Positions 13,107-49,398 of a DNA stretch of 64,000 nucleotides are shown here, piece by piece (position 1 is the first letter of the stretch; every line of letters starts with the position of its first letter). The notes below the pieces were generated by a model. The model did not search any database. It had not been told where the DNA came from and saw nothing but the letters and a program-made list of their open reading frames with translations. This DNA is from Escherichia coli (lineage in GTDB: Bacteria; Pseudomonadota; Gammaproteobacteria; Enterobacterales; Enterobacteriaceae), in the NCBI RefSeq assembly GCF_046105845.1, contig NZ_CP151004.1; one strand, written 5' to 3'. Made by a program: the position numbers and the translations under genes.

Positions 13107-13162
13107 GTGGGTGTTGTGTTTAGGGCCGGGGAGAGTCGGGGTATGACTACGAAAGCCCCTAA

Positions 13163-13702
13163 CTTAAACACGATATTACGCCAGAAGTCACCATTTCCAA
13201 AACACAACGCCGTTGTACCGTGGGATATCTGCCCAACAGCAGCGACACGCCGGTGATCAAAATCAGCGCCAAATGGCTGAGAGAAGCGGGATTTGAGATC
13301 GGCACGGGCGTTACCGTGAAGATCCCGGAAGGTTGCCTGATCCTGCTTGCGGATAACAACGAAGTACAGGAACTGAGGAAGGAACTTTATAAGGTTAAAC
13401 AGGCTGTCTTCAATATAGAACCGGAGCGATTACGCCAGTCAGGATCTGACTTTAGTTGCCTTCTCTTTATTCTCATCATGGCTATTTGTTCTGCGGGATC
13501 AAGCTTTCCCTTTGCTATTCTCGCCTTCATATATTCAATTTGTTTCTCCAGATATGAAATCCCTGCCAGTGCGATGTGCTTCGGTATGTTCCATTTTTCA
13601 CGATATTCGTCAGCGCGTATTCCATGCACAAACCAGATATGGCGCGGTAAAAAAATGAGCAACTTGCCACACTCCAGACAGGGTATTTTTTCCCGCTTAT
13701 GA
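13163..13702 (+). CDS. SymE-family (type I toxin-like) ORF, possibly degenerate
   Basis: Residues TVGYLPNSSDTPVIKISAKWLREAGFEIGTGVTVKIPEGCLILLA align with E. coli SymE; no ATG (track start at 13220 is GTG; in-frame stop at 13160); the 3' ~250 nt lacks a stop only because it runs antisense to the MucR-like gene. Confidence 0.35.
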   Translation, partial: LKHDITPEVTISKTQRRCTVGYLPNSSDTPVIKISAKWLREAGFEIGTGVTVKIPEGCLILLADNNEVQELRKELYKVKQAVFNIEPERLRQSGSDFSCLLFILIMAICSAGSSFPFAILAFIYSICFSRYEIPASAMCFGMFHFSRYSSARIPCTNQIWRGKKMSNLPHSRQGIFSRL

Positions 13703-13758
13703 TATGCCAGAACCTCTTCACGCGTTTCGAATGGCCTGTTCCTCTCTTTTTTGTACAC
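13387..13758 (-). CDS. Ros/MucR-family zinc-finger DNA-binding protein (short form lacking the usual N-terminal domain)
   Basis: 123 aa ORF with CLECGKLLIFLPRHIWFVHGIRADEYREKWNIP, close to the Ros/MucR signature. Confidence 0.6.
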   Translation of the reverse strand: MYKKERNRPFETREEVLAYHKREKIPCLECGKLLIFLPRHIWFVHGIRADEYREKWNIPKHIALAGISYLEKQIEYMKARIAKGKLDPAEQIAMMRIKRRQLKSDPDWRNRSGSILKTACLTL

Positions 13759-13822
13759 AAAGACTCCTTTTAAAAAATGGCAAGGTCACATATCCCTTAT
13801 TGGTACATAAATCCCCCGACGT

Positions 13823-15199
13823 TTACTGACTTTGTTCCACCTTCGTATCCAGTAAAATTACATAGCGATTCAGCAACTGATTTAACCGGGTATCTATCTG
13901 CGTCAACAGCGTCGGCGAAACCTCTCCGGTCTGTTTTTGCTCTTCCAGTTGCCGAAGCAGTTCTTCCAGCGGCGGCTCCTTTAACGACTGCCGGATGCCG
14001 TACACCGCCGTTTTTAGTTCCGAGCCGGTCAGATATCTCCCCTTACGCTCATCCAGTGCATCCAGCTGCGCCGACAGGCGCTGTAGCTGGCTTTGCGCCT
14101 GTGCGTAGCCATTCAATGCCTCAGCAGACATGGCGCTCAGCTCCCGCTGCTTACGCCACTGCGCGTTCAGCGCCCTGACCTGAGGATTATCCGGCCACAG
14201 GGCATCAAGCTGGCGTAGCTGGCGATATCCCTGCTCCAGCGGCCAGCGGGCAGGCAATTTGTTTAACTGCTCCAGCTGCATCTGACTTGCCGCAATTGTT
14301 CTGTCCTGAGCCAGCAGCGCCTTATCCTTTACATCCAGCTTTGCCAGTTCGCCGCTCTCCAGCGACTGCGGCAACGGCATGACAGACAGTTGTATTCGCT
14401 GGATTAGCGCGTCCGGCTGATTAAGCTGCGACCAGCCCCATAATCCTGTTCCGCCGAGACAGGCCATCACAACCATTCCGGCCATAAATATCGGCCATGC
14501 CCGCTGCCGGGAGATTTCAGGGGATGGCACGGATGGACTGGCATCCTTATCGTTTTGCTGAGCGGGTCTGGTTGCAAAAACCGGCTGTGGACTTTCTTCT
14601 GACTTTTTCGGTTGCTTCATTTCCTTGCGGGGTAATTCAGGGGGAGTGATAGTGGTTTCCGCTCCCTGTGGTGCCAGCCGCTCCAGACGTAGCGCCGCAT
14701 TACGAAACTGCCCGGCCAGCACATCCAGTTTCGTCATATGCCACAGTTCACACTGTTGCAGCGTGGTTTCGATGGCGGAAAGATGCTGTACACAACGGTA
14801 AATCTGCGGCAGATCCTGATACTGAATATCCAGCGTTCTCAGTGCCTGCTGCATTTTTTCTGTGACCCAGCTGAGCAGTGATATTCTGGAATGTACCTGT
14901 ACCGGCCAGAAGTCGGCCCATCGCTGGAGCAGTATGTCCAGTGAACCGAGTCCGTCTGCCATCCCTGCCAGCCCCTGCCGTCTGGTTATCGCCAGTACGT
15001 AACAGACCAGCGTCTGTAATTCCACGCCATTTTGCCGGAACAGCGCGAGGCTGAGTTTTTCCACCTGACGCCAGTCCACATCCGGTCGGGCCGGGTGAGT
15101 CAGTTTACTCATTTCAGCCTGCAGTTCACCGGATTCCTTATAAGTACAGGGATCGCCGCCCATGACGAACTGGCTGATAAAATTCGCGTTACTTGCCAT
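13823..15199 (-). CDS. tagA: T6SS accessory protein with ImpA-like N-terminal domain (TagA-like)
   Basis: 458 aa; TssA/ImpA-like N-terminus, central hydrophobic segment (AWPIFMAGMVVMACLGGTGLWGW), coiled-coil C-terminus; last gene of the T6SS cluster. Confidence 0.55.
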   Translation of the reverse strand: MASNANFISQFVMGGDPCTYKESGELQAEMSKLTHPARPDVDWRQVEKLSLALFRQNGVELQTLVCYVLAITRRQGLAGMADGLGSLDILLQRWADFWPVQVHSRISLLSWVTEKMQQALRTLDIQYQDLPQIYRCVQHLSAIETTLQQCELWHMTKLDVLAGQFRNAALRLERLAPQGAETTITPPELPRKEMKQPKKSEESPQPVFATRPAQQNDKDASPSVPSPEISRQRAWPIFMAGMVVMACLGGTGLWGWSQLNQPDALIQRIQLSVMPLPQSLESGELAKLDVKDKALLAQDRTIAASQMQLEQLNKLPARWPLEQGYRQLRQLDALWPDNPQVRALNAQWRKQRELSAMSAEALNGYAQAQSQLQRLSAQLDALDERKGRYLTGSELKTAVYGIRQSLKEPPLEELLRQLEEQKQTGEVSPTLLTQIDTRLNQLLNRYVILLDTKVEQSQ

Positions 15200-15627
15200 C
15201 AGTACGCCCGCTCCTGCTGTTTGAGATGACGCAGAACAATTCGTCCTTCCGGAGAAAATACGCCATCAAAGCGTATCCAGCCGGTATCGGGAAGCTGCGC
15301 GTGGATCAGGTAATTAAGATGCCCCGGACGGGGCTGGGGGAGTAACTCCACCTGTATCTGACTCAGGCGTGGTTCATAACGCAGCAGCGTTTCTTCAATC
15401 TGACGCATCAGGCCATGAATACCCGCAGCCATCCCCTGATGGATCAGACTGAGATCCGGCAGACCGTAATCCGGCAAATGCGCCAGCGTGCCTGCCCGAC
15501 AGTTGATAATGCGTTGCATATTGTCCATCACGGAAAGGATAAGCTGATCCCGCTCGCTGACCTGTTCCAGTGGTAACTCGCCGCTGAAACTGAACGTCAG
15601 CATTTCATATAAGGAAGGTGTCGACAT
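15199..15627 (-). CDS. tssE: T6SS baseplate subunit TssE (gp25-like)
   Basis: 142 aa; size and sequence typical of TssE; within the T6SS gene run. Confidence 0.85.
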   Translation of the reverse strand: MSTPSLYEMLTFSFSGELPLEQVSERDQLILSVMDNMQRIINCRAGTLAHLPDYGLPDLSLIHQGMAAGIHGLMRQIEETLLRYEPRLSQIQVELLPQPRPGHLNYLIHAQLPDTGWIRFDGVFSPEGRIVLRHLKQQERAY

Positions 15628-15630
15628 CGG

Positions 15631-16167
15631 TTATTTATCCTTGAGAGGCAGCAGTCGCAGGTCGCTTCTCATCAGTTCAATCGAGCGCGGCTTGTCGGCC
15701 TCCAGTTCGTCCCTTTTGATCACCAGACGCCAGCTGTCGCTTTTTTCATCAGGGTGATAAAACTGCCCGATAATGGCGACAAACTGCGTCTCTTTATCCA
15801 GCGGCTCATTCAGGGATGCCGTGCCTTCCGGTTTTACCCAGACGGTGTGTTTTGCCAGTACGTCCTTCTCCAGCGTCTTCTCTTCCTGCATAAACAGGGT
15901 GTCATAATCCGCCTTGTCAAAATCTTCGCGGGTTTTCAGTTGCCAGACATGCACCATCGTGGAAAGCGGCGTATCTTCCGCATCCGTATTCAGGGCACTT
16001 CGGGAGAAGAAATCGAGATGCAGTATTTTGATTTGCTTGTAGAAAACGGCTGAGGCCACGCTTTTCGATTCATCCACCACTTTCTGAATCAGCCCGCAGC
16101 CACTCAGAACAACCGTCAGCATCGCCATACAGAGCAGCGCCGGACGTTTAAAACGAATAGGAAACAT
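15631..16167 (-). CDS. tssJ: T6SS outer-membrane lipoprotein TssJ
   Basis: 178 aa with lipoprotein signal (LTVVLSGCG); size and context of TssJ/SciN. Confidence 0.8.
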   Translation of the reverse strand: MFPIRFKRPALLCMAMLTVVLSGCGLIQKVVDESKSVASAVFYKQIKILHLDFFSRSALNTDAEDTPLSTMVHVWQLKTREDFDKADYDTLFMQEEKTLEKDVLAKHTVWVKPEGTASLNEPLDKETQFVAIIGQFYHPDEKSDSWRLVIKRDELEADKPRSIELMRSDLRLLPLKDK

Positions 16168-17236
16168 GAGTCATACACTCCCTGTTACGAATGGATAAAG
16201 CGGGTATTAATCCCTGATAACGCCCCAGACTGACCGTCACTGTTCCGGTCGCGGGCGCGGCAAAGGAGGCGCGAAGGATGCCGGTACGGCTAATCTGTAC
16301 GCGCTGTTTTCCCAGCCGGGCAGCAGGCAACAGGCTGACGGGCAGTGTCAGTTGCAGACGGGCCTGACAGCGCCAGCCCAGATAAACGCGCAGCAGTACC
16401 AGCAAATCGCTGTGCAGCTGTCCGCCAGGCAGCCAGCCACGCGCTTCTGCGGCATCTTCGGTATACAGTTTCAGCAGCAACTGGCTGTTGACGTCGGTGC
16501 CGGTACGCCCCAGCAGCGTTCGCGTTTTCAGGCTGATGCGTGAATTTTTTGACAGACCCGCAGGGGCCGGGAGAATAACAGGCTGCGGATCATGAGGCAC
16601 CACCGTCGCTTTCGTCAGCGGGGCAAGCAGTCCCACCAGTGCCGTAACGCCTTCCGCCGTGCGCGTCGGCAGGCGCATCACGCTGAGCAGGGCCAGAAAA
16701 CGGGATACCGGCGTGGCGATATGGTTCTCGCTGCCGGGAATACCCAGCCCGATGAGTCCCAGCAGACAACGGGAAATGTCATCCACAGCACCTGCTTCAA
16801 ACGACGCCGGGTAGTTATATTTGCGCCAGATGCGGTAATACTGGGTGATAAAGCGGTGGTTAAAAATATCGAGAAACGCCATCACTGCGTCATGTCCGTC
16901 ATGACGCTGGGTAATGTAGTCCAGATAGGCGGTTGGCAGCGGCGAATCCACGCCGTACAGGCCGAAAAAGGTGGTGCGCACCGTGGGTGGTGCGTCGGGA
17001 TTGTCCACGTCACGTTCAACGTTCTTTAACTCGCTGACCGGAAAGCCCATTCCGGGATGGGGACGAAAGCGCACCGCATCGGCGGCGGGGCTGTCGGTAC
17101 TGCCCAGCGGCGCTTTCTGTTGGCTCTGTTCCAGCAACTGGCAAAAACGGTAAAAATTGATCCGCGCAATATCCGGGGCCAGCCGGTCGGTCAGCCCGGT
17201 ACGCGCTGGCTGTGATGCTCTGTCCATTGCAGGCAC
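16148..17236 (-). CDS. tssG: T6SS baseplate subunit TssG
   Basis: 362 aa ORF overlapping the tssF stop; TssG-like sequence. Confidence 0.85.
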   Translation of the reverse strand: MPAMDRASQPARTGLTDRLAPDIARINFYRFCQLLEQSQQKAPLGSTDSPAADAVRFRPHPGMGFPVSELKNVERDVDNPDAPPTVRTTFFGLYGVDSPLPTAYLDYITQRHDGHDAVMAFLDIFNHRFITQYYRIWRKYNYPASFEAGAVDDISRCLLGLIGLGIPGSENHIATPVSRFLALLSVMRLPTRTAEGVTALVGLLAPLTKATVVPHDPQPVILPAPAGLSKNSRISLKTRTLLGRTGTDVNSQLLLKLYTEDAAEARGWLPGGQLHSDLLVLLRVYLGWRCQARLQLTLPVSLLPAARLGKQRVQISRTGILRASFAAPATGTVTVSLGRYQGLIPALSIRNRECMTHVSYSF

Positions 17237-18951
17237 TTTCCTGTGGGTTGCAGAATTAAGGTCAGTTGAGTGAATAAGTGGATATCGGCATACAGTGCGA
17301 AGAAGCGGTGCAGCAGTTCACCAAACAGTGTGATATCACCTTCTCCGGCAAAGCCGTTACTGTCCAGCGTTACCTGAATATCCACGCCACGCAGCAGAAA
17401 GCCTCTTTCAAAACGCTGTATCAGGCTGTGCTGAACGTCGACAATCGCCTCCAGACGACGGCGGTTCATCTCGCTTTCGGTCCAGTCGTACAACGCCAGC
17501 GTGCCGCGCACAATTTCGGCGTTATCCATCATCGATAAAAAGTTAGAACCAAGGTGGCTGAGCACCCGCCAGTGGAAGCGGTCACGCGCCGGGGGATAGC
17601 AGGGCTGCGTCGGGGCGCACAGGTTGCGCACCCGCAGGACGTTCTGTGAGGCGTGGACTGGCGTATCGAGTAGCGTGCTCTGTAAAGCTTTACGGGGAAG
17701 CTGCCCGTTAGTGCCGGTCAGACTTAAGGACAGAGTTTCATCCTCCAGCATCCGGTCAGAATCAAACGCATCGCCGCCCAGAATCAGCCAGGTATCATGC
17801 AGGCCGGAAGGGCCGCGCTTAACCCGCGTATGGTAATAACGTTCCGGCGCATCGTGGCGCAGCATCCCGCCCCGGTGACGAAAGCTGGAGAATGGCACAT
17901 ACGCCTGACTGCCGGTATGGCGCGAAGAAATAATGTTGTCGACGGAATAAATCTCGGTATGCCCGTCCTGAATTCGCATCGGGCGCAGCAGAAATTCGTT
18001 TTCCAGTGGCGAAAGGTGTAACGGATCGGCTTCCAGCGGGAACAGGTTGATAACCGGCACGCAGTGCAGGCGGAGATTGTCGGTATTAAACGGCAAATCA
18101 TGAGGCCAGCTTTCCGCCAGCACCACGTCAATCTCAAAGCCGGTTATCCCTTCCGGCCAGATGACGTTCTCCAGCCCGTTGAGTGCCACAAACATAAACT
18201 TCTCGCGGAAGGTGAAATACTCCAGCAGCAACTGGTAGCCGCTGAACGCCGACTCGCCTTTTGGCCAGAGCCTGTCATTATCCTCAAAGCCCAACGGGGA
18301 AAAGTGTGCGTCAAGCGTCCGGCGATCCTGCCCCGGCAGACGCAACCAGAACTGCTGCGTACCAAGCGTTAAAGCCCGGTGCAGCGCACAGGCCACCGGA
18401 CTGTCGGCATTGAGATAGAGCGGCAGGCGGGATAAATCGATCTGTGACCAGTCACCGACCAGCGGGCCGCATTCAAAGCGCAGACGAATAACCGAACGTC
18501 CGTCCGGTTCATATTGCAATGACACGTCCGGCAACGCCAGCGGATGCAGCGTGATATCCCGCGTGGCGCTGTAGAAACAGCGGGTTCTGCGCTCGCCAAC
18601 AGGGCGCGACAATACCTGAAAATCGCTCAGCGTTTCGCTCTGCTTCATCTGCCGGTGATCTGTCGACAGTTCAACCACGGAAAGTGACGGGATAGTTCGC
18701 AGGTAGTGAGGCCACAGCAGGCTGACCAGCCCTTCAGTCAGCTCCGGCAGATCGTCGTCCAGCTTCTCGCGCAGGCGGCCCATTAAAAAAGCAAAGCCTT
18801 CGAACAGGCGTTCCACATAGGGATCGCGTGCGCCGGGTTTATCAAGATTGAGCATCGCGGCGCGGTCGGGGTAAGCCTGCGCAAATTCTTTCCCCGCTTC
18901 ACGCAGGTAGCGCATTTCGGCTTCGTAGTAGCGTTGGGTTAAGTCGTCCAT
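17191..18951 (-). CDS. tssF: T6SS baseplate subunit TssF
   Basis: About 586 aa from MDDLTQRYYEAEMRYLREAGKEFA (Shine-Dalgarno upstream); the ORF track starts 13 codons earlier. Confidence 0.85.
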   Translation of the reverse strand: MDDLTQRYYEAEMRYLREAGKEFAQAYPDRAAMLNLDKPGARDPYVERLFEGFAFLMGRLREKLDDDLPELTEGLVSLLWPHYLRTIPSLSVVELSTDHRQMKQSETLSDFQVLSRPVGERRTRCFYSATRDITLHPLALPDVSLQYEPDGRSVIRLRFECGPLVGDWSQIDLSRLPLYLNADSPVACALHRALTLGTQQFWLRLPGQDRRTLDAHFSPLGFEDNDRLWPKGESAFSGYQLLLEYFTFREKFMFVALNGLENVIWPEGITGFEIDVVLAESWPHDLPFNTDNLRLHCVPVINLFPLEADPLHLSPLENEFLLRPMRIQDGHTEIYSVDNIISSRHTGSQAYVPFSSFRHRGGMLRHDAPERYYHTRVKRGPSGLHDTWLILGGDAFDSDRMLEDETLSLSLTGTNGQLPRKALQSTLLDTPVHASQNVLRVRNLCAPTQPCYPPARDRFHWRVLSHLGSNFLSMMDNAEIVRGTLALYDWTESEMNRRRLEAIVDVQHSLIQRFERGFLLRGVDIQVTLDSNGFAGEGDITLFGELLHRFFALYADIHLFTQLTLILQPTGKCLQWTEHHSQRVPG

Positions 18952-19026
18952 CGGAGGATTTATCTTTCCTTTTATTGAAATTAATACCAACGAGTAGTGA
19001 GATTAGAATTTTTTATTTTCAGAATC

Positions 19027-19431
19027 CTAAGGACATATAGATGGATCATTTATTTCAAAAGAAAAATCGGACTCCATACTAGATGAGGATTTTTTCAATA
19101 AAGAGGAGATATGATATCCAGATAAAGTTTTAGAATTGTTACCATCAGATATCAAAATACTAAGTTCAGAAACAATATTTACAGGGTTTTTATTAAAAAC
19201 ATCTGACTCTCTACCTGTGTAAATAAAGTATACAATTGGCTTCCGCTCTCCGATATCAAGATGAAAATTATCTCTTACTTTACCATCATAATGTGTTGAA
19301 TTATTGACCGTCGAAATGTTAATAGATACTTTGCATGTATTTACCATGACAATGGAACAAGAATAGAATGGTTGAGATAAACATCCAGCACACAGCGTAC
19401 ATAATAAAAAAAAGAATATTAATCTAGTCAT
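19027..19431 (-). CDS. Small lipoprotein, candidate immunity protein for the upstream PAAR toxin
   Basis: 134 aa, lipoprotein signal MTRLIFFFLLCTLCAGC; 8-bp overlap with the PAAR-toxin gene; AT-rich. Confidence 0.5.
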   Translation of the reverse strand: MTRLIFFFLLCTLCAGCLSQPFYSCSIVMVNTCKVSINISTVNNSTHYDGKVRDNFHLDIGERKPIVYFIYTGRESDVFNKNPVNIVSELSILISDGNNSKTLSGYHISSLLKKSSSSMESDFSFEINDPSICP

Positions 19432-40903: not shown

Positions 40904-41569
40904 TTAACGCAGGCTTTGCGGCAGCAGTTCATCTACCAGTACATTCAGCCAGTGGTGTAGCCCCCACCAGACGCCCGCCAGTAGCAGCGCCAGTGTTACC
41001 AGCCAGAAAAACGGCGAATGCAGCAAAGGGTGCTGACGGGTGGATAACGGCACGTTCAGTACCGCCGTTTCCGGCAGCACGCCAAATGGCGCGACCTGCC
41101 CGTTGAGCGTCGAAATAAGCTGGTCGCGCTCCGGGGCCACCGGATCCTGATAACGCCCGCGAAATCCCAGCAGCAGGACACGGTGAAAGCAGGTCAGCAC
41201 AGCCTGTGCAGGTGCGGGCTCCTGCAACACCTGCTTCATCCGTTCGTACAGCAGCTCGCCTGCCTGCAGGGTGTTGAAGAAATGCGACTGGAGTGGATCC
41301 TTCATCCAGATGGCCTGACCGTCGTCCATGCCGCCACGGCTCAGGACCGTTTCGTCCAGCAGGGCGCACTGTGCGTAAGTTATGTGCTCCACGCTCTCCC
41401 GGCTGAACCCGGCATCTTTCAGGCGTTCGCGGACCCCTTCCACCTGCCGCTGGCAGTGGCGATACAGCTCCATACCGTGACGCACGGTGGTTCCCTGACG
41501 CAGTTCCACCACCGTCAGAAACGTGTCGCGCAGCAGCGCGTCGATATTGATATCCGTCTCTTTTTTCAT
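40904..41569 (-). CDS. tssL: T6SS membrane-complex protein TssL (DotU-like)
   Basis: 221 aa; cytoplasmic DotU-like domain with C-terminal transmembrane helix (FFWLVTLALLLAGVWWGL). Confidence 0.85.
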   Translation of the reverse strand: MKKETDINIDALLRDTFLTVVELRQGTTVRHGMELYRHCQRQVEGVRERLKDAGFSRESVEHITYAQCALLDETVLSRGGMDDGQAIWMKDPLQSHFFNTLQAGELLYERMKQVLQEPAPAQAVLTCFHRVLLLGFRGRYQDPVAPERDQLISTLNGQVAPFGVLPETAVLNVPLSTRQHPLLHSPFFWLVTLALLLAGVWWGLHHWLNVLVDELLPQSLR

Positions 41570-42903: not shown

Positions 42904-42920
42904 ATCACACCACTTCCCGG

Positions 42921-44465
42921 TCAGGCTTTCGCTTTCGGCATCTGGGAAACCAGTGACAGGTTGATATCCATCCCTTCAATCTGGAAATGCGGCACGGCAA
43001 AGAGTCTGACGCGGAAGAAGCCCGGATTGTCCTCAATATCTTCCACGATAACCTTGCCGTCGCGCAGCGGGTGAGACGCCTGCAGTTCATCACCCGGATC
43101 GGTCATCTCCGTCACCAGTGTGCGGATCCAGGTGTTCAGTTCCAGTTCCAGTACGCGGCGGTCTTTGGTGGTACCGATATTCTCGCGCTGGATGATTTTC
43201 AGGTAATGCGCAATGCGGGACAGCAGGAAGATATAGGGTAAACGGGCGTTAATACGGCTGTTGGCAGTGGCATCAGCGGTATCATACAACGCCGGTTTCT
43301 GGGCAGAGTTTGCCGAGAAGAAGCAGGCGTAATCGCGATTCTTATAATAAGAGAGCGGAATAAAGCCAAGGTTGGCAAATTCAAATTCGCGGGTTTCCGG
43401 GATCATCACTTCGGACGGAATTTTGACCTGATTGCCGGTGCCGAGATCGTAAAGATGGATGGGCAGATCGGTCACTGCGCCACCTGCCTGTGGACCACGG
43501 ATCTGCACACACCAGCCATTATTCACAAAGCTCTTCACCATATTGGCGGCAAAAGCGAACGAGGCGTTTGTCCACAGGTACTTTTCGTGATCCGGACCTT
43601 TGACTTCTTCCACATAGTTAAAGCTGCGTACCGGCACCGTGTCCGGCCCGTACGGCAGACGCCCCAGTACGCGCGGCATCACTAATCCCACATAGCGACT
43701 GTCATCCGTATCGCGGAACGATTTCCATTTAATATATTCTGCGCGGTCAAAGTAGTTGCCGATATCTTTAATCGCGGCGACTTCTTCCATCGAATTTTTA
43801 AGGAAGAATTTCGGCCCGACAGAACCTATAAATGGCATATGGGAAGCGGCAGACACTCTGGAAATATTGCGCAGCAGGGCAATATCCTGCGGGCTGTTAT
43901 CAAATTCATAGCTGGAAATTAATGAGGCAACAGGTTCGCCACCCGGCGTATCGTACTCCTGAATGTATGTATGACGATATAAACCGCTCTGAATGATTTC
44001 CGGGGAGTCGTCGAAATCCTGACGCAGATGCTCTTTGCTGATATCCAGCAATTCAATTCTGACATTTTTGCGAAAATCAGTGCGCTGTACGACGAACCAT
44101 GTGCCGCGCCACAGCGACTCGACTTTCTGGAATTCAGGATGGTGCATTACCGCATCAAGCTGCTTACTGATTTTCTGATCCAAATCGTCGATATGAAAAT
44201 CCAGCAGGCTCTTGTCGAGCTTGACCACGTTCTCGCCTGATTTCGCCAGACAGGAAAGCAGAACGTGAATCGCCGCTGTCACGCGCTCATCGGGTGAGGC
44301 ATCCGCCAGTGTTTCGCTGTTTTGCCATAAATCTATTTCCTGAATGGAAGACACCGGGGTTAAATTAATTTTATCAAACAGGGACTGATAAACGCCGCCG
44401 GACTCAGTGGTGGTCAGTGTTGCAGTTTCAGAGGTGGCATGTTCTTGTTGTACAGACATCAGCAT
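42921..44465 (-). CDS. tssC: T6SS contractile sheath large subunit TssC (VipB)
   Basis: About 512 aa; TssC-like; downstream of tssB. Confidence 0.9.
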   Translation of the reverse strand: MLMSVQQEHATSETATLTTTESGGVYQSLFDKINLTPVSSIQEIDLWQNSETLADASPDERVTAAIHVLLSCLAKSGENVVKLDKSLLDFHIDDLDQKISKQLDAVMHHPEFQKVESLWRGTWFVVQRTDFRKNVRIELLDISKEHLRQDFDDSPEIIQSGLYRHTYIQEYDTPGGEPVASLISSYEFDNSPQDIALLRNISRVSAASHMPFIGSVGPKFFLKNSMEEVAAIKDIGNYFDRAEYIKWKSFRDTDDSRYVGLVMPRVLGRLPYGPDTVPVRSFNYVEEVKGPDHEKYLWTNASFAFAANMVKSFVNNGWCVQIRGPQAGGAVTDLPIHLYDLGTGNQVKIPSEVMIPETREFEFANLGFIPLSYYKNRDYACFFSANSAQKPALYDTADATANSRINARLPYIFLLSRIAHYLKIIQRENIGTTKDRRVLELELNTWIRTLVTEMTDPGDELQASHPLRDGKVIVEDIEDNPGFFRVRLFAVPHFQIEGMDINLSLVSQMPKAKA

Positions 44466-44517: not shown

Positions 44518-45018
44518 TTAAACGTTCTCCTGCGGCGCAATTTTCGCCAGTTCATCACGCAGTTCTGAACTGAGCGTTGGGTCTTTCAGGATATTTTCCA
44601 GTTCACGGCGAAACGTTGCGTTATCCAGCAGATTGGATTTGAGGTCACGTAATAAATTGCGCATAGCGAGTAATACACGAAGCTGTGGGATATTTTTTGC
44701 TACCTGTTCGGGTTCAAAATCTTTCAGGCTTTTAAATTCAAGCGCGATATTTTGTTCATTACCGCTTCCGCTTAGTGTGTCTTCTACTGTTAAATTAACC
44801 GCAGGCGAAAACTCAGCCATGACACTGTTGAAGTTGTTTTTATTGATATCAATCTTGTCCCGTTCGGACAGCGGACGTTGCTCTTTTCCGTTACTGTAAT
44901 CGCCAACAGCAAGAAGCTTGAGGGGGAGTTCAACTTTCTTTTTAGCATTGCCTGTATGCAGGTCAAGCTTGATATTTACACGAGCGGCGGGAACTTCATT
45001 CTGGAAACTGTCGGCCAT
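44518..45018 (-). CDS. tssB: T6SS contractile sheath small subunit TssB (VipA)
   Basis: About 166 aa from MADSFQNEVPAARVNIKLDL; first gene of the T6SS operon. Confidence 0.9.
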   Translation of the reverse strand: MADSFQNEVPAARVNIKLDLHTGNAKKKVELPLKLLAVGDYSNGKEQRPLSERDKIDINKNNFNSVMAEFSPAVNLTVEDTLSGSGNEQNIALEFKSLKDFEPEQVAKNIPQLRVLLAMRNLLRDLKSNLLDNATFRRELENILKDPTLSSELRDELAKIAPQENV

Positions 45019-45045
45019 ATCCTTTTCCTCATCATCCACTTTCAT

Positions 45046-45657
45046 CAGGAGTGCGAGATAATCACGCGTGTGACTATCCCATAAGGATTATGACTATATA
45101 AAGATAAAAAACAAGAACAAATATAGAGACAGAAATATCATTTATAATTGCTGTGAATAATTATACGTCTATCTCGAAATTATATTATTTGAGAACATCA
45201 TCCCATTTTTAGGCGTTTTAGCTGTTAAGCAGACGGTTAAACCTATACATGTGTATACATGCATGAAAATACTGAAAAACAACAAGATCCACATCACAAA
45301 AATTTATTTTTCAGAATGACGGAATTCATGTTTTTTTCGCAAATTATTCACCATGCAAATATTTAATTTTTTTCATGCTTAATAAAATATGATGTTTACT
45401 CATATGCCAACTATGCTACCTGTTGACGCCACACACCAATACACAAAACAAATGCAACAATCACAAACCATAAAAATAAAATATGATTTAGCTATAGTTA
45501 TCAACAAAATAACATCACCACCATTTATAATTTTACTATTGATAAAAAATAGAAACTACGATAAATAATAAAGCATTACTTACCAATCATTCTTTTAAAT
45601 GATTCTGGAATGCAGTCTCCACTGCATAATTGGGCTGTGTTTTTTAAGGAGCAAGTA
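45046..45657. promoter_or_regulatory. About 600 bp AT-rich divergent intergenic region: T6SS (tssB) promoter region and promoter of the 313-aa gene
   Basis: Strongly AT-rich; contains a GATC site (around 45287-45290) and AT-rich Fur-box-like stretches; in the EAEC sci-1 cluster Fur/Dam control is established. Confidence 0.4.
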
Positions 45658-46599
45658 ATGCATACCATTCCTTATTATAGCAATAACACCTCTATGCCTG
45701 TCTGGGTTACTGTTAGCGAAGCAACTGATATTATCAATAAGTATACTAACAGCCATATTAAAGATTGTGACTTATGGCGTTATGCACTTTATGGTCACTT
45801 ACCTCTTTCAATTTATTTCCAGTCACAAATAAAGCTTAGAAAAATTTGCCTGAGCGGCGATGAAATCATGCTGGATAACATCGAAGAAAGCATTATTGAG
45901 AAGATAGCTCAGTTAAGTGATACGTGCATATACAATGGGAAAAATAAAATAATAAAGACAGAAGGTGACTATATTTCCCCAGAGCATCATATTATTGATA
46001 CACCATTAATTGGTCATGAATATATTGTATTACAAAGATTACTTGCTCACTCATTAAAAATACCAAAACCTATTACAGGACAGTATAATTCTCATTATGG
46101 TGTTGTCGTCCGTGAAAATGGAATAATTTATCAGGTCTTCGAATCAACTACACTGGAAAACAGAATAACCCAGCGCCTTCGCCATCTTTCAATCCCCGTT
46201 GCAACATACTTTTACGAATCAACAAAATCCCAGGATCTCAAACAGGCAGGAACCCGGTATTTCCCGGTTTATCATTTTCCTGACGATGCCTGGTTCGTTA
46301 TCAAACGCACTGCTCTTGAGCAATTCATAAATACTTTTCTCCCTCCCACTCATAAAAATACCCCTAAAAATGGAACCCGCATTTCTACACCGCTATCACG
46401 ATTTCTCTGGCTAGCGTGTAAGCACAATCATGATATTAGCGCACTGATGGGGCACCCCTACAAACTCCTCTCCGTGTTCGAAGAATGGGCCCGCTCCGAC
46501 GGTATCACTGAACGACTAAATGGAGATACGCTGAAAACCGCACTGGAACGCGGTTCTCCGGTTTTAGCCTACCGTAACTCCGAATTAATGAAATCCTAA
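45658..46599 (+). CDS. Hypothetical protein (island cargo, no family recognised)
   Basis: Likely start MHTIPYYSNN (ggagcaagta Shine-Dalgarno-like sequence upstream); about 313 aa; AT-rich 5' two-thirds. Confidence 0.5.
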   Translation: MHTIPYYSNNTSMPVWVTVSEATDIINKYTNSHIKDCDLWRYALYGHLPLSIYFQSQIKLRKICLSGDEIMLDNIEESIIEKIAQLSDTCIYNGKNKIIKTEGDYISPEHHIIDTPLIGHEYIVLQRLLAHSLKIPKPITGQYNSHYGVVVRENGIIYQVFESTTLENRITQRLRHLSIPVATYFYESTKSQDLKQAGTRYFPVYHFPDDAWFVIKRTALEQFINTFLPPTHKNTPKNGTRISTPLSRFLWLACKHNHDISALMGHPYKLLSVFEEWARSDGITERLNGDTLKTALERGSPVLAYRNSELMKS

Positions 46600-46699: not shown

Positions 46700-46885
46700 A
46701 TGACGTCACAACGATTTCTGCGGCTGGCACAGGTTATGGATAAAACCGGACTGAAACGCTCACAGGTCTATGCTTATATGAAAACAGGGGATTTCCCAAA
46801 ATCCGTCAAAATTGGCCCGTCCAGCGTAGCATGGCTGGAATCGGAAATTGACGAATGGATCAATACAAAAATAAATAACCGCTAA
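46700..46885 (+). CDS. alpA: AlpA-family phage/island transcriptional regulator (excisionase-like)
   Basis: 61 aa MTSQRFLRLAQVMDKTGLKRSQVYAYMKTGDFPKSVKIGPSSVAWLESEIDEWI, AlpA-like helix-turn-helix. Confidence 0.8.
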   Translation: MTSQRFLRLAQVMDKTGLKRSQVYAYMKTGDFPKSVKIGPSSVAWLESEIDEWINTKINNR

Positions 46886-46924
46886 TGTAGTATTCTCATT
46901 ATTAGTTTGTTTGAGGTCATTAAT

Positions 46925-47719
46925 ATGAACGATGATCACGGTATTCTTATGCCTGTCGCACTAAATCAGCTACGGGCATTTGATTTAAATCCACGCCTTA
47001 CCAAAAATCCAGAATATGATGAAATTAAAGAATCGATTCGCAACCGCGGGCTGGATTATCCGCCACAAATAACACAACGTCCGGGAGAATCTTTTTATAT
47101 TATTGCCAATGGAGGTAATACCCGGCTGGCAATACTCAACGAGTTATGGCTGGAAACTCACGATAAAAAATACTGGAATATTGTCTGTCATTTCTGGAAG
47201 TGGCATACAGACTGGAGCATTGAAGAAGGTAATTTACACTGCCTGCTTGGTCATCTCGTAGAAAATGATAAACGCGGTTCACTGACATTTATTGAACGGG
47301 CATTAGGGGTTCAAAGTGCAATAAACCTGTATCAAAGTATCCGGGGAAGCTCACAAAGAGATCTGGTACAAATGCTCTGTCAGGCGGGATATCCAGTATC
47401 CACCACGAAACTAAGTATTATGTCCGCGACTATCACATTTCTTTTACCCTATATTCCGGAAGCACTTTACGGTGGTCTGTCGAGACGTATTATCGATAAA
47501 TTGCTGGCACTTCGTTCCAATACGCTAAAATTCTGGGACAACTTCTGCCAGACGTTGCCTCCCGAAAAGGAACAGCAACTCCCTCTATTTGACGATATTT
47601 TTGCTATGGCCCTGACTCCCTTTAATGAACCGATGACAGGTTTTTCACTGGAGCATATTCAGGATGAGCTGACAGGGATTATCAGCAAGACACTTAATGT
47701 GGACTCTGCCCAGCGATAA
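46925..47719 (+). CDS. ParB/Srx-like N-terminal-domain protein (island-associated)
   Basis: Start MNDDHGIL after a gaggt Shine-Dalgarno; the motif YIIANGGNTRLAIL resembles the ParB N-terminal box; assignment tentative. Confidence 0.45.
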   Translation: MNDDHGILMPVALNQLRAFDLNPRLTKNPEYDEIKESIRNRGLDYPPQITQRPGESFYIIANGGNTRLAILNELWLETHDKKYWNIVCHFWKWHTDWSIEEGNLHCLLGHLVENDKRGSLTFIERALGVQSAINLYQSIRGSSQRDLVQMLCQAGYPVSTTKLSIMSATITFLLPYIPEALYGGLSRRIIDKLLALRSNTLKFWDNFCQTLPPEKEQQLPLFDDIFAMALTPFNEPMTGFSLEHIQDELTGIISKTLNVDSAQR

Positions 47720-47916
47720 CGGGATGGCCAGATTTGCGCCGGTGATATATTCAATGCCTCCGCAATCAACCGCTCACCTTTCGGCCAGTGGCTCCTGAGT
47801 GCATTTGCCAGCGTACCGGAGGCCAGCCCGGCTTTGCGGGAAACCGCTGCCAGCGACGTTCCCTGTTTTTTCAGTGCCGCGATAATATCTGCGGGGTGCC
47901 AGTCCTGCTGCATCAT
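47659..47916 (-). CDS. Ner/Nlp-family small DNA-binding protein
   Basis: From MMQQDWHPADIIAALKKQGTSLAAVSRKAGLASGTLANAL...; Ner-like helix-turn-helix; start overlaps the integrase stop. Confidence 0.55.
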   Translation of the reverse strand: MMQQDWHPADIIAALKKQGTSLAAVSRKAGLASGTLANALRSHWPKGERLIAEALNISPAQIWPSRYRWAESTLSVLLIIPVSSS

Positions 47917-49137
47917 ACTGCCCTCCCACAAACCAGCCGTTCGGACGGGATACCACATACACGCTGGCTCCACCACGCCATCACGTCGGTTCTCTGCTCA
48001 AGATAGGTCGAGCGGTTATAAGCGGCGCGCGTCTGATTAGTATCCGCATGAGCCAGTACAGCTTCTATCACATCAGGGGAAAATCCGGCCTCATTCAGCG
48101 TGGTGCTACCCAGCGCCCGGAAACCATGTGACACCAGCTCCCCGCAATACCCCATACGCCGTAGTGCCTTATTGACCGTTTCGCTATTCATTGGTTGCGA
48201 GGGCTTAACCCGACCCGGAAACAGGAACGGCGAGTGTCCACTTATCGGTTTAAGTTGCTCCAGTATCCACAGCATTTCATCAGTCAGGGGCACCAGATGC
48301 TCACGGCGTTTTTTCATACGCTCAGCCGGAATAGTCCATAGCTTTTTCTCCGTATCAATCTCACGCCACATGGTGCCTGACGCTTCTCCGGGGCGCACCA
48401 GCGTCAGCAACTGCCACTTAATCAGATAACGAGTCATCAGCGATAGATTGGTGGTTTCAATCCGCTGTACCAGCTCCGGCAGGCGTTCCGGGCGGATAGA
48501 CGCCATATGCTGTTTTTTCGGCTTCTCAAAGACCTTACCGATGGTCGAGGCTGGATTCGCATCAAGCAGGCCGGAATTGACAGCAAATACCATCACTTCG
48601 TTGATACGCTGGGTTAGACGACGCAGGGTTTCCAGCGCACCTCGTGCCCGGACCGGCTCAAGGGCGGCAATCAGAGTATGTGCTTTCAATTCAGCTACCG
48701 GCATCTGTCCGATTGACGGAAGAACATCCCGTTCCATCGAACGCCAGATATCATCTGCATGCACTTCTGAAATGCCACTGGTCTTTTTAATAGCAAACCA
48801 TCTTGTCGCCACATTGATAAACAGGCTGTCGATTGCTTTCTTTTCCTGTTCTGCGGCTTCCTGCTCCAGCTTTTTCGGATCTACACCCTGAGCCAGCAGA
48901 CCAAGATATTCATCATGTACTGCGGGCAGCAGCAAGAGTTACAGCAGGATAATAACCCAGCGTGATATTGGTACGGGCAGTGGAGTTTGGACGCTGGTAA
49001 CGAAAACGCCAGATTTTCTTCCCGGAAGTACGAACAGAAAGCGTCAGACCATGCCCGTCAGGCAGGTCGTAATCTTTATCGGCGGGTTTTGCTTTTTGTA
49101 CTGCGGCAGCAGTCAGCAGGCGGCGGGTAATGGTCAT
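47913..49137 (-). pseudogene. int: P4-type tyrosine integrase, interrupted by a frameshift
   Basis: N-terminal 74-aa ORF (48913..49137, arm-binding-like domain) and C-terminal 340-aa ORF (47913..48935, catalytic domain) lie in different frames with a junction near 48915-48935. Confidence 0.8.
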
Positions 49138-49320
49138 GATTTACTCCTCAGTTATCGTCAATGTTAAGCGACGAGGCTGACGTAATATCCTGTTCCACCA
49201 CCACTTTTTCAGCCATAAACTCAGAAATGGCCTACGAAATTTGTCCTCTGGTCGCATAGGCCATTTCATGGGCCATTTTGCACCGGATACAGGAGTATCC
49301 AGCAGGACAAATTCAGACGA

Positions 49321-49353
49321 AAAAAAACCGTATCACCTTGATAGCGATACGGT
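49321..49353 (-). terminator. Rho-independent terminator downstream of aspV
   Basis: On the minus strand accgtatc...gatacggt hairpin followed by ttttttt. Confidence 0.55.
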
Positions 49354-49398
49354 TTTCTTACTTCACAGGATGTATAAAAACACCCTGAAATTTGTAAG

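What the first reader, a model, noticed from the sequence alone, without database searches (positions are those of the whole stretch)
13107..49398. Complete T6SS island at tRNA-Asp aspV between yafV and dnaQ
All 13 core T6SS genes (tssA, B, C, E, F, G, J, K, L, M, hcp, clpV, vgrG) plus tagL and a tagA-like gene lie in a single minus-strand run starting from an AT-rich promoter region. The run is flanked by a tRNA gene, a P4-type integrase, alpA and other island genes. The layout matches the Sci-1-type clusters described in enteroaggregative and avian pathogenic E. coli, while the cargo differs from the Tle1/Tli1 pair I recall for the EAEC cluster.
Basis: partly seen in the sequence, partly recalled or inferred. 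Interest (0 to 1): 0.5.

Follow-up and report, generated by a model that had tools for sequence, protein, structure and literature searches.

The report
Complete T6SS-1 island at aspV
This is a complete, apparently intact type VI secretion "gun" of the well-known E. coli T6SS-1 kind; it is ordinary as a machine, but it sits at an unusual tRNA gene inside the decayed, now immobile remnant of a mobile element.

Summary
Window 13,159-49,396 is a 36.2-kb insert, absent from K-12, between yafV and tRNA-Asp aspV. It carries all 13 core T6SS genes plus TagL and a TagA-like gene in one minus-strand run. All 18 machine proteins align end to end with UPEC 536 proteins at 91-99% identity.

Gene order is colinear with EAEC Sci-1, but those proteins are only 35-82% identical. 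The real sibling is the "PAI-metV" T6SS-1, present in about 1,333 of 5,426 complete E. coli genomes.

The position is the unusual part. Only 2 of 5,426 complete genomes have this type at aspV, where E. coli normally carries T6SS-2. Salmonella SPI-20 is a published precedent.

The island is a locked-in remnant of a tRNA-Asp-specific integrative mobilizable element:
- the integrase has a 2-bp frameshift;
- ParB and the HTH gene are truncated by a deletion that removed the MobH relaxase module;
- the distal end is cut inside mucR, with no att repeat.

E. fergusonii has the same element at aspU with intact integrase, relaxase and 22-bp att repeats.

The cargo is not Tle1/Tli1. It comprises a glycine-zipper toxin, a divergent M35 aspzincin peptidase and a PAAR-HExxH toxin, each followed by a putative immunity gene.

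Identical sequence already exists in public assemblies. Verdict: a new member of a known kind, of modest interest.

The parts
12327..13106 (+). yafV (2-oxoglutaramate amidase), the chromosomal flank
   Evidence: NF007757 at 546 bits. 97.5% identical to K-12 up to 13158.
13159..13406 (.). Junction DNA with no match in K-12, 536, W, MEW or E. fergusonii. It contains a SymE-like N-terminal fragment (ORF 13220-13702 +, only residues 5-59 match).
13387..13758 (-). Truncated MucR/Ros-family regulator gene (123 aa instead of the 183-codon gene in W). Homology to the E. coli W and E. fergusonii copies stops at 13407.
13823..15199 (-). TagA-like protein (TssA-like ImpA_N N-terminus plus VasL domain), 458 aa
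   Evidence: TIGR03362 partial match. Pfam ImpA_N + VasL on homologues. 97.4% full-length identity to 536.
15199..15627 (-). tssE (baseplate)
   Evidence: TIGR03357 at 87 bits against a 53-bit cut-off.
15631..16167 (-). tssJ (outer-membrane lipoprotein)
   Evidence: TIGR03352 at 79 bits against a 32-bit cut-off.
16148..17236 (-). tssG (baseplate)
   Evidence: TIGR03347 at 261 bits.
17191..18990 (-). tssF (baseplate)
   Evidence: TIGR03359 at 573 bits.
19027..19431 (-). Putative immunity lipoprotein for the PAAR toxin (134 aa, signal peptide plus lipobox-like LCAGC, 30% GC)
   Evidence: Sequence. 95% identical to an unannotated ORF in 536.
19424..20863 (-). PAAR-domain effector with a C-terminal HETGH (HExxH) motif, 476-479 aa
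   Evidence: Pfam PAAR_motif E=2.7e-9. Motif visible. 96% identical to the 536 PAAR protein.
20860..22497 (-). tssA (cap protein)
   Evidence: TIGR03362 at 476 bits against a 230-bit cut-off.
22463..25795 (-). tssM (IcmF-type membrane-complex subunit). The real start is about 25795; the mechanical ORF runs to 26113.
   Evidence: TIGR03348 at 259 bits, below cut-off. 97% identical to the 1108-aa 536 protein from ORF residue 107.
25852..27066 (-). Conserved 404-aa accessory membrane protein of the 536-type cluster (named 'KPHS_23130 family T6SS system protein' in the MEW record)
   Evidence: No Sci-1 counterpart at E<1e-5.
27127..27504 (-). 125-aa lipoprotein (lipobox LTGC), a possible extra or orphan immunity protein
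   Evidence: The exact protein occurs in other E. coli assemblies. No counterpart in 536 or MEW.
27501..28397 (-). 298-aa exported protein, the putative immunity partner of the M35 effector
   Evidence: N-terminal hydrophobic segment. 27% identical to the partner gene in 536 and MEW.
28449..29252 (-). M35 aspzincin-fold zinc metallopeptidase effector (VgrG2 cargo), a divergent allele
   Evidence: Invariant H166-E167-H170-D187 in the family alignment. AF2 pLDDT 87.5. Foldseek top hits 1ge6 and AsaP1, probability 1.00. 27% identical to the 536/MEW M35 effector.
29259..31760 (-). vgrG2 (spike)
   Evidence: TIGR01646 at 451 bits.
31805..32422 (-). 205-aa putative immunity protein for the glycine-zipper effector
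   Evidence: Assigned by position. 98% identical to 536. No Pfam match.
32412..33302 (-). 296-aa glycine-zipper effector (VgrG1 cargo), 100% identical to the UPEC 536 protein
   Evidence: Named 'glycine zipper family protein' by NCBI.
33296..35785 (-). vgrG1 (spike)
   Evidence: TIGR01646 at 456 bits.
35797..38442 (-). tssH/clpV (sheath-recycling AAA+ ATPase)
   Evidence: TIGR03345 at 1109 bits against an 885-bit cut-off.
38633..39124 (-). hcp/tssD (tube)
   Evidence: TIGR03344 at 173 bits.
39182..40891 (-). tagL (peptidoglycan-anchoring OmpA-domain accessory protein), 569 aa. A mosaic breakpoint lies at about 40314-40333.
   Evidence: OmpA-type domain at residues 435-558. 90.7% identical to 536 with a 19-aa length difference. 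BLAST segment breaks.
40904..41569 (-). tssL (short form)
   Evidence: NF038239 at 286 bits.
41566..42903 (-). tssK (baseplate)
   Evidence: TIGR03353 at 394 bits.
42921..44465 (-). tssC (sheath, large subunit)
   Evidence: TIGR03355 at 663 bits.
44518..45045 (-). tssB (sheath, small subunit). The likely real start is about 45018.
   Evidence: TIGR03358 at 164 bits. The 536 protein aligns from ORF residue 10.
45046..45609 (.). AT-rich (28.5% GC) divergent intergenic and promoter region. It is not homologous to the region upstream of tssB at metV. No Fur box above chance; one GATC.
45610..46599 (+). o329, a backbone gene of an Enterobacterales integrative-element family (usually called as 308 aa); function unknown
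   Evidence: No Pfam or NCBIfam match. 278 homologues across Enterobacterales. Always followed by AlpA and ParB.
46700..46885 (+). alpA-family regulator (61 aa)
   Evidence: Pfam Phage_AlpA on the identical gene. RefSeq annotation in MEW.
46925..47719 (+). Truncated ParB (ICE PFGI-1 type), about 260 of roughly 480 codons. The deletion junction is at about 47702-47705.
   Evidence: TIGR03764 at 272 bits. Homology to every full-length copy ends at 47705.
47659..47916 (-). SfsB/Ner-like HTH_35 gene, C-terminally truncated (85 aa against 116 aa)
   Evidence: NF007670. Pfam HTH_35.
47913..49137 (-). P4-type tyrosine integrase pseudogene. A 2-bp (CA) deletion at about 48923 splits it into 74-aa and 340-aa ORFs.
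   Evidence: The same split occurs in independent assemblies.
49399..49475 (-). tRNA-Asp (GTC) aspV, the integration site
   Evidence: ARAGORN, Rfam and K-12 synteny.

Best explanation
The window carries a complete contractile type VI secretion system of the E. coli T6SS-1 class, 536/PAI-metV sublineage.

Inferred from established knowledge of the homologous EAEC Sci-1 machine:
- TssJ-TssL-TssM form the envelope-spanning complex, anchored to peptidoglycan by TagL.
- TssE/F/G/K and a VgrG trimer form the baseplate.
- TssA primes polymerisation of the Hcp tube and the TssBC sheath.
- The TagA-like protein stops and holds the extended sheath.
- Contraction fires Hcp/VgrG/PAAR with their cargo into neighbouring bacteria, and ClpV recycles the sheath.

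Three effector-immunity modules ride on the spike:
1. VgrG1 carries a 296-aa glycine-zipper protein, inferred to perturb membranes.
2. VgrG2 carries an M35 aspzincin-fold zinc peptidase. It is followed by an exported protein and a lipoprotein, inferred to be periplasmic immunity proteins.
3. A PAAR protein has a C-terminal HExxH domain and is followed by a lipoprotein.

The predicted role is contact-dependent killing of competing Gram-negative bacteria.

The cluster reached aspV as part of a tRNA-Asp-specific integrative mobilizable element. That element's gene order is int, HTH_35, MobH relaxase, ParA, TraR, DUF2857, ParB, AlpA, o329, T6SS-1, MucR, att. In this E. coli lineage the element has been immobilised by an integrase frameshift, a deletion from mid-ParB to the HTH gene that removed the relaxase module, and loss of the distal end and att repeat.
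For: Machine:
- All 13 core families are identified.
- All 18 machine and accessory proteins align full-length with UPEC 536 at 91-99% identity.
- Gene order is colinear with EAEC 042 Sci-1.

Cargo:
- PAAR motif and HETGH motif, with lipoboxes and signal peptides on the downstream ORFs.
- o267 has invariant HExxH...D, a confident model and M35 aspzincin fold hits at probability 1.00.
- Published tests show that E. coli T6SS M35 peptidases and a 'PAAR-Ex1' toxin are toxic only in the periplasm (PMC7904677). M35^PAR is neutralised by its downstream immunity gene and loaded via the VgrG DUF2345 domain (PMC10673891).

Island:
- It is absent from K-12, with a sharp edge at the tRNA 3' end.
- The E. 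fergusonii element at aspU has an intact 408-aa integrase, a MobH relaxase, ParA and TraR, plus two perfect 22-bp repeats of the tRNA 3' end that enclose the T6SS remnant and MucR.
- The window lacks the 6.1-kb mobilisation stretch.
- The integrase has a 2-bp deletion relative to the intact SC418 allele, and independent assemblies share the split.
- mucR is truncated at 13407, and no distal att repeat is present.
- A Salmonella enterica contig has the same T6SS-1/o329/AlpA/ParB junction.
Against: - No expression or secretion data exist for this locus.
- TssM scores below the NCBIfam curated cut-off, although so does the 536 orthologue, judging by its annotation as 'ImcF-related'.
- The 205-aa partner of the glycine-zipper protein has no signal peptide or transmembrane segment and no family match, so its immunity role rests on position alone.
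- No copy with both a full T6SS-1 and a full mobility module was found. The E. fergusonii copy has a degraded T6SS, and the Salmonella contigs end after TraR.
- In T6SS-less relatives, o329 abuts yafT with no recognisable att site. The usual distal boundary of this element family is therefore unresolved.
- The scan of species-representative genomes with o329 found nothing.
Confidence: 0.8

Rival explanations
1. Tandem islands. A T6SS-1 island ending in MucR was already sitting at tRNA-Asp. An unrelated ICE/IME later integrated into the same tRNA and pushed it distally. Under this reading the T6SS is a neighbour of the element, not its cargo.
For: tRNA genes commonly accumulate tandem islands. 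In S. salamae, K. pneumoniae and contig L029 the same backbone begins with o329 and has no T6SS-1 beside it. Homology between the window and the metV-type cluster ends within the first bases of tssB (about 45042), so the T6SS block behaves as a discrete module.
Against: No internal att remnant lies between o329 and tssB in the window, in E. fergusonii or in the Salmonella contig, even allowing 5 mismatches. The E. fergusonii element has only two att copies, and both lie outside the T6SS and MucR. The same o329-tssB junction is seen in three species.
Confidence: 0.15
2. Intragenomic relocation. The cluster moved from metV to aspV within E. coli by recombination, and the integrase and AlpA genes are unrelated leftovers of an earlier aspV island.
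For: The core genes are 95-98% identical to metV copies. The cluster is mosaic, with different best matches along its length, which shows recombination with other E. coli T6SS-1 alleles.
Against: The region upstream of tssB and the o329 junction are shared with E. fergusonii and Salmonella, not with metV loci. MucR also ends the cluster at metV, yet in E. fergusonii it lies inside the att-bounded element.
Confidence: 0.05
3. The locus is intact but functionally silent, or it serves mainly in host interaction rather than in interbacterial killing.
For: The 564-bp upstream region at 28.5% GC is typical of xenogeneic silencing targets (inference). It has no Fur box above chance and a single GATC, so the known Sci-1 Fur/Dam switch is not evident. 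The cluster-end MucR-family regulator is truncated. Reviews credit E. coli T6SSs with roles in both pathogenesis and antibacterial activity (PMC10711316).
Against: All ORFs are intact, which argues for ongoing selection. Every cargo gene is paired with a downstream putative immunity gene, the hallmark of antibacterial effectors. Related M35 and PAAR effectors are toxic to E. coli in the periplasm (PMC7904677, PMC10673891).
Confidence: 0.2

Closest known systems
T6SS-1 of UPEC 536/CFT073 ('PAI-metV' T6SS; 'Ec536' type)
   Same: It has the same gene content and order. All 18 machine and accessory proteins are 91-99% identical over their full length. The PAAR toxin (96%), its immunity gene (95%), the glycine-zipper effector (100%) and its partner (98%) are shared. 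The VgrG2 cargo has the same architecture: an M35-family effector followed by a roughly 300-aa partner.
   Different: In 536 and E. coli W the cluster lies at the metZWV tRNA genes between amiC and mltA, with no integrase. The window's cluster lies at aspV with integrative-element remnants. The region upstream of tssB is unrelated. The VgrG2 cargo is only 27% identical, and the window has an extra lipoprotein. MucR is truncated here.
EAEC 042/17-2 Sci-1 (the reference T6SS-1)
   Same: Gene order is colinear: tssB-C-K-L-tagL-hcp-clpV-vgrG ... tssM-tssA ... tssF-G-J-E-tagA. It is the same mechanistic class, so the structural and functional knowledge transfers.
   Different: Proteins are 35% (TagL) to 82% (Hcp) identical. 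Sci-1 lies on the pheU island, has a single VgrG with Tle1/Tli1 cargo and a small stand-alone PAAR. It has no counterpart of o404, MucR or any window cargo protein. No evidence here for its Fur/Dam-controlled promoter.
Salmonella enterica subsp. arizonae SPI-20
   Same: It is published as a T6SS adjacent to aspV whose closest relative is the PAI-metV T6SS of UPEC. It has 55-60% GC with low-GC patches and no obvious direct repeats (PMC2907695). That is the same cluster type, the same tRNA gene and the same missing repeats.
   Different: It is in a different genus. SPI-20 sequence was not compared directly here. A Salmonella enterica contig with the same T6SS-1/o329 junction is about 78-80% identical at the DNA level, but I did not establish that it is SPI-20.
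E. fergusonii tRNA-Asp (aspU) element, CP057357.1
   Same: It has the same integrase-HTH module (99.3% nt), the same o329-AlpA-ParB region and tssB-tssK (94.7%), and the same MucR end (98%). It also targets the 3' end of a tRNA-Asp gene.
   Different: The E. fergusonii copy keeps an intact integrase, a MobH relaxase, ParA, TraR, DUF2857 and both 22-bp att repeats, but has lost most of the T6SS. It sits at aspU next to dkgB and rrfH rather than at aspV.
E. coli T6SS-2 islands at tRNA-Asp (O157 OI#7, APEC O1, ECC-1470 types)
   Same: They occupy the same chromosomal hotspot, aspV within the yaf region (PMC8715443; bioRxiv 10.1101/2024.03.05.583533).
   Different: They belong to a different T6SS phylogenetic group with a different gene organisation. 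The window's cluster has the T6SS-1 organisation.

Membership tests
Canonical type VI secretion system | All 13 core components present (TssA, B, C, D/Hcp, E, F, G, H/ClpV, I/VgrG, J, K, L, M) | tested here: met
   NCBIfam equivalog models score above cut-off for 12 components. TssM is below cut-off (259 against 388 bits) but 97% identical over its full length to the 536 TssM.
Canonical type VI secretion system | Core genes intact, with no frameshifts or truncations | tested here: met
   End-to-end alignments with the annotated 536 proteins.
Canonical type VI secretion system | Hcp and VgrG secretion with sheath dynamics | not testable with these tools
   Requires secretion assays or microscopy.
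E. coli T6SS-1 organisation (Journet and Cascales classes, as cited in PMC8715443 and PMC10711316) | Gene order tssB-C-K-L-tagL-hcp-clpV-vgrG ... tssM-A ... tssF-G-J-E-tagA, with TagL present and no rhs gene inside the cluster | tested here: met
   Colinear with EAEC 042 Sci-1 and UPEC 536. No Rhs-type ORF appears in the run.
EAEC Sci-1 in the strict sense | Tle1 phospholipase and Tli1 cargo loaded on VgrG | tested here: not met
   No window protein hits Tle1 or Tli1 of strain 042 at E<1e-5.
EAEC Sci-1 in the strict sense | Location on the pheU island, with a Fur/Dam-controlled promoter | tested here: not met
   The window's cluster is at aspV. The best Fur-box match has 6 mismatches, no better than shuffles, and there is a single GATC. 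The promoter test is only a consensus scan.
PAI-metV / Ec536-type T6SS-1 | High sequence identity across the whole machine | tested here: met
   91-99% aa for 18 proteins. 95-98% nt.
PAI-metV / Ec536-type T6SS-1 | Insertion at the metZWV tRNA-Met genes | tested here: not met
   The window's cluster is at tRNA-Asp aspV. In 536 and W it is at metV.
tRNA-integrated integrative mobilizable/conjugative element | Tyrosine integrase adjacent to the tRNA 3' end | tested here: inconclusive
   The gene is present and 99% identical to intact alleles, but it is inactivated by a 2-bp deletion.
tRNA-integrated integrative mobilizable/conjugative element | Flanking direct repeats (att sites) derived from the tRNA 3' end | tested here: not met
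   There is no second copy in the window within 3-5 mismatches. The feature is met in the E. fergusonii relative, which has a perfect 22-bp repeat.
tRNA-integrated integrative mobilizable/conjugative element | Relaxase and transfer functions | tested here: not met
   Absent from the window. The MobH relaxase, ParA and TraR are present in E. fergusonii. The 6.1-kb stretch is deleted in the window.
M35 aspzincin metallopeptidases (o267) | HExxH motif plus a downstream Asp zinc ligand in a GTxD-type motif, and the aspzincin fold | tested here: met
   H166, E167, H170 and D187 are invariant. Foldseek hits 1ge6 and 2x3a at probability 1.00 with target TM-score 0.67. Sequence hit to 1g12 at E=4e-4. 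The Pfam hit is weak (E=0.057). Catalysis was not tested.
Salmonella SPI-20 | Sequence orthology to SPI-20 of S. arizonae | not tested
   Only the published description was compared (PMC2907695). No SPI-20 sequence was fetched.

The most novel reading that the evidence does not exclude
The T6SS-1 cluster is genuine cargo of a tRNA-Asp-specific integrative mobilizable element. The element belongs to an Enterobacterales ICE family with a MobH relaxase, PFGI-1-type ParB, AlpA and the o329 backbone gene. It has carried a complete roughly 32-kb secretion machine between Salmonella, E. fergusonii and E. coli, using either aspV or aspU, and then decayed in place. This would give a concrete vehicle for the patchy occurrence of T6SS-1 at several tRNA sites (metV, pheU, selC, aspV) and for SPI-20 in Salmonella.
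Probability: 0.4. Interest if true: 0.5.

Novelty: new member of a known kind. Interest (0 to 1): 0.3.

Why it matters
As a machine this is a textbook T6SS-1, and it adds nothing new mechanistically. There are two points of modest value.

First, it shows that the two E. coli T6SS classes are not tied to "their" tRNA sites. A T6SS-1 here occupies the hotspot that normally holds T6SS-2. That is relevant to the published argument that a shared insertion site explains the mutual exclusion of T6SS variants (PMC8715443).

Second, comparison with E. fergusonii and Salmonella links the cluster physically to an integrase/relaxase element bounded by att sites. That makes the horizontal spread of a whole T6SS experimentally testable through excision and mobilisation assays. 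The E. coli copies illustrate stepwise domestication: integrase frameshift, loss of the relaxase, loss of the distal end, and further ISEc31-associated erosion.

The divergent M35 effector allele (27% identical to the 536 allele) is a candidate for a new effector-immunity specificity.

Tried and rejected
- **att repeat searches.** I searched for a direct repeat of the tRNA-Asp 3' end at the yafV edge and between o329 and tssB and found none. I also looked for an att site between yafT and o329 in T6SS-less relatives and found none, so the usual distal boundary of the element family is unresolved.
- **Species-representative genome scan.** The scan with o329 returned 131 pattern hits, none confirmed.
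- **Family searches that returned nothing useful.** Pfam found nothing for o296, o205, o329 or o298. PDB sequence searches found nothing for the PAAR toxin or o296. NCBIfam found nothing for the cargo or immunity ORFs.
- **RNA and regulatory scans.** The Rfam scan of 12-51 kb found only the tRNA. The consensus promoter scan gave fewer sites than shuffles. The Fur-box scan was no better than chance.
- **Non-E. coli origin.** I considered that the window might come from another Escherichia species, given about 95% identity to the best T6SS matches. I rejected this because the flanks are 97.5-99.3% identical to K-12 and 100%-identical E. coli contigs exist.
- **Integrase frameshift as a sequencing error.** Rejected, because the same split occurs in several independent assemblies.
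- **An undeleted copy.** I looked for a copy with both a full T6SS-1 and a full mobility module and did not find one.

Full report

Yes. ARAGORN finds tRNA-Asp(GTC) at 49399-49475 on the minus strand. The ORF at 12327-13106 is YafV. A BLAST of the window against the K-12 MG1655 aspV region shows collinear flanks at 97.5-99.3% identity. The flanks break at 13158 and resume at 49397, the last bases of the tRNA. The window is therefore E. coli, in the opposite orientation to the K-12 map. It carries a 36.2-kb insert where K-12 has yafT-ykfM-yafU-yafF.

Curated NCBIfam models identify TssE, J, G, F, A, two VgrGs, ClpV/TssH, Hcp, TssL (short form), K, C and B above their cut-offs. TssM is below cut-off but is 97% identical over its full length to the protein annotated 'ImcF-related' in UPEC 536. 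TagL is a 569-aa protein with a C-terminal OmpA-type domain. The last gene of the run has a TssA-like N-terminus, and homologous loci record ImpA_N + VasL for it, which is the TagA architecture.

All of these genes lie on the minus strand, downstream of a 564-bp region of 28.5% GC. Every one of 18 machine and accessory proteins aligns end to end with its 536 counterpart at 91-99% identity, so nothing is truncated. Core genes are 56-60% GC, three cargo patches are 34-38% and the flanks are 49-52%.

**2. Which T6SS is it?**

Gene order is fully colinear with EAEC 042 Sci-1, which I fetched for direct comparison. The proteins are only 35% (TagL) to 82% (Hcp) identical, however. None of the cargo, the 404-aa accessory protein or MucR has a Sci-1 counterpart.

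The true sibling is the cluster of UPEC 536 and E. coli W. It is 95-98% identical at the DNA level, and its tagA-tssF segment is present in 1,333 of 5,426 complete E. coli genomes. In those strains it lies at the metZWV tRNA genes between amiC and mltA, with no integrase.

Published work states that in E. coli the 536-type T6SS-1 is inserted at tRNA-Met and the T6SS-2 variants at tRNA-Asp (PMC8715443). Other T6SS-1 islands are at pheU (PMC6730261) and selC (bioRxiv 10.1101/2024.03.05.583533). Junction-spanning searches show that only two complete genomes have this type at aspV: MEW from an ivory gull, and an O158:H23 strain. The closest published precedent is Salmonella arizonae SPI-20, a T6SS at aspV whose nearest relative is the UPEC PAI-metV system and which lacks obvious direct repeats (PMC2907695).

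The window's cluster is also mosaic. The stretch 40.3-47.4 kb is 99% identical to MEW, while 13.7-40.3 kb is about 94-95% identical to MEW and 536 and up to 97.9% identical to other strains. The breakpoint lies inside tagL.

**3. What surrounds it?**

Next to the tRNA lies a P4-type integrase. It is split into 74-aa and 340-aa ORFs by a 2-bp CA deletion at about 48923, relative to the intact 408-aa allele of strain SC418. The same split occurs in several independent assemblies, including a metagenome assembly, so it is real and inherited.

After the integrase come an SfsB/Ner-like HTH_35 gene, a PFGI-1-type ParB, AlpA and a 329-aa ORF, o329.

Exact-protein look-ups led to an Escherichia fergusonii chromosome, CP057357.1. 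There the same module belongs to a larger element with this order: tRNA-Asp, intact integrase, HTH_35, MobH-family relaxase (PFGI-1 class), ParA, an IS, a TraR-type zinc finger, DUF2857, ParB, AlpA, o329, a degraded T6SS-1 (tssB, tssC, tssK and fragments), full-length MucR, and then a perfect 22-bp repeat of the tRNA 3' end. That element sits next to dkgB and rrfH, at the other tRNA-Asp gene, aspU. In the window, aspU has the same 3' end as aspV.

Aligned to the E. fergusonii element, the window shows three lesions:
- It lacks a 6.1-kb stretch running from mid-ParB to the 3' end of the HTH gene, with the junction at about 47,702. Homology to every full-length 479-489-aa ParB stops at 47,705.
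- mucR is cut at 13,407, giving 123 aa against the 183-codon gene in W.
- The sequence 13,159-13,406 is unrelated DNA with a SymE-like fragment, and no att repeat is present.

In MEW, O158:H23 and several draft genomes, ISEc31 has additionally replaced the integrase and HTH genes. In SC418, only tRNA-Asp, the integrase, a partial HTH gene and ISEc31 remain next to yafV.

o329 has 278 homologues across Enterobacterales. In S. salamae and K. pneumoniae it begins a long ICE backbone (AlpA, ParB, DUF2857, TraR, AcaB, DUF3158, SSB, DUF3577, DUF3275, DUF6094) with no T6SS-1 beside it. In a Salmonella enterica contig, a T6SS-1-type run abuts o329 exactly as it does in the window.

The most economical reading is that a member of this element family acquired the T6SS-1 plus MucR block inside its att-bounded span. 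It then integrated at tRNA-Asp genes and has been progressively immobilised in E. coli. I did not find a copy with both a full T6SS and a full mobility module. I also could not locate the distal att site in T6SS-less relatives. The cargo-versus-tandem-insertion question is therefore not closed.

**4. Cargo**

There are three modules.

- **VgrG1 module.** VgrG1 is followed by a 296-aa protein ending in a long glycine-zipper segment. It is 100% identical to the 536 protein and is named 'glycine zipper family protein' by NCBI. A 205-aa ORF with no recognisable features follows it.
- **VgrG2 module.** VgrG2 is followed by o267, which is only 27% identical to the M35-family effector at the same position in 536 and MEW. 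A 27-sequence family alignment shows invariant H166-E167-x-x-H170 and D187 in a GGMGTxD consensus. The AlphaFold2 model is confident, with pLDDT 87.5. Its top six Foldseek hits are the M35 aspzincins from Grifola and Aeromonas AsaP1, at probability 1.00. It is followed by an exported 298-aa protein, 27% identical to the 536 partner, and an extra 125-aa lipoprotein.
- **PAAR module.** Between tssA and tssF lies a PAAR protein with a C-terminal HETGH motif, followed by a 134-aa lipoprotein-like ORF. Both are shared with 536, at 96% and 95% identity.

Published experiments on related E. coli proteins show periplasm-dependent toxicity of an M35 peptidase and a 'PAAR-Ex1' toxin (PMC7904677). They also show immunity-neutralised toxicity and DUF2345-dependent loading of M35^PAR on VgrG (PMC10673891). 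I did not establish that PAAR-Ex1 is the same protein as the window's PAAR toxin. The periplasmic targets and immunity roles proposed here are inferences from these precedents and from the signal peptides and lipoboxes.

**5. Regulation**

Homology to the metV-type cluster ends within the first few bases of tssB (about 45042), so the upstream region differs. A consensus scan finds no Fur box better than chance and a single GATC. The generic promoter scan is uninformative. The Fur/Dam switch known for Sci-1 is therefore not evident here. AT-richness suggests H-NS silencing, but that is inference only.

**6. Novelty and verdict**

Contigs 100% identical to the window over 6-21 kb already exist in public assemblies, and the machine and effector families are known. 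The searched literature does not describe either the placement of a 536-type T6SS-1 at aspV in E. coli or its physical link to an integrase/MobH element. That search is limited to open-access papers.

I rate this a new member of a known kind.

Noticed in passing
window 47913-49137: The P4-type integrase is a pseudogene. A 2-bp CA deletion at about 48923 relative to the intact SC418 allele splits it into 74-aa and 340-aa ORFs. The same lesion is present in several independent assemblies.
   Followed up: yes
window 47659-47719 (junction at about 47702): The ParB and HTH_35 ORFs converge and overlap because a deletion fused mid-ParB (about codon 260 of roughly 480) to the 3' part of the HTH gene. 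The deletion removed DUF2857, TraR, ParA and the MobH relaxase that are present in E. fergusonii.
   Followed up: yes
window 13159-13758: The MucR-family regulator that ends the T6SS-1 module is truncated at 13407. It is joined to 248 bp of unmatched DNA that encodes a SymE-like N-terminal fragment (ORF 13220-13702, only residues 5-59 match SymE).
   Followed up: partly
window 57621-57697 (aspU) and L008 4301-4322, 19885-19961: The second tRNA-Asp gene, aspU downstream of rrfH, has the same 3' end as aspV. It is the site used by the related element in E. fergusonii, where a perfect 22-bp att repeat survives.
   Followed up: yes
L001 15303-15704 (UPEC 536, NZ_CP066743.1): The RefSeq record of UPEC 536 leaves the 134-aa lipoprotein ORF downstream of the PAAR toxin unannotated. 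It is 95% identical to the window's putative immunity gene.
   Followed up: partly
window 40314-40333 (inside tagL): This is a mosaic breakpoint. To the right of it the cluster is 99% identical to strains MEW and O158:H23; to the left it is only about 94-95% identical to them. TagL is 569 aa here against 550 aa in 536 (90.7% identity).
   Followed up: partly
window 5266-5752 and 6445-6670: Relative to K-12, the left flank lacks the rayT (yafM) segment, which is replaced by 486 bp with a 131-aa ORF at 5308-5703. It also lacks the dinJ-yafQ toxin-antitoxin segment. Neither K-12 stretch has a BLAST match in the window.
   Followed up: no
window 27127-27504: An extra 125-aa lipoprotein follows the M35 effector's partner gene and has no counterpart in 536 or MEW. 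It may be an orphan or second immunity gene. Annotators elsewhere mostly call it as 103 aa.
   Followed up: partly
L005 (SC418), L002/L003 (MEW, O158:H23), L018, L021, L022: ISEc31 sits at different points of this island in different strains. In some it replaces the integrase and HTH genes. In SC418 it replaces everything from the HTH gene to yafV. This suggests repeated IS-associated erosion of the element.
   Followed up: partly
L024, L029 (S. salamae and an unassigned contig): In T6SS-1-less relatives, the o329 end of the ICE backbone abuts yafT and a different-type T6SS (VasI/VasJ/VasL, Hcp, AcrVA2-like protein). No recognisable att repeat lies between them.
   Followed up: partly
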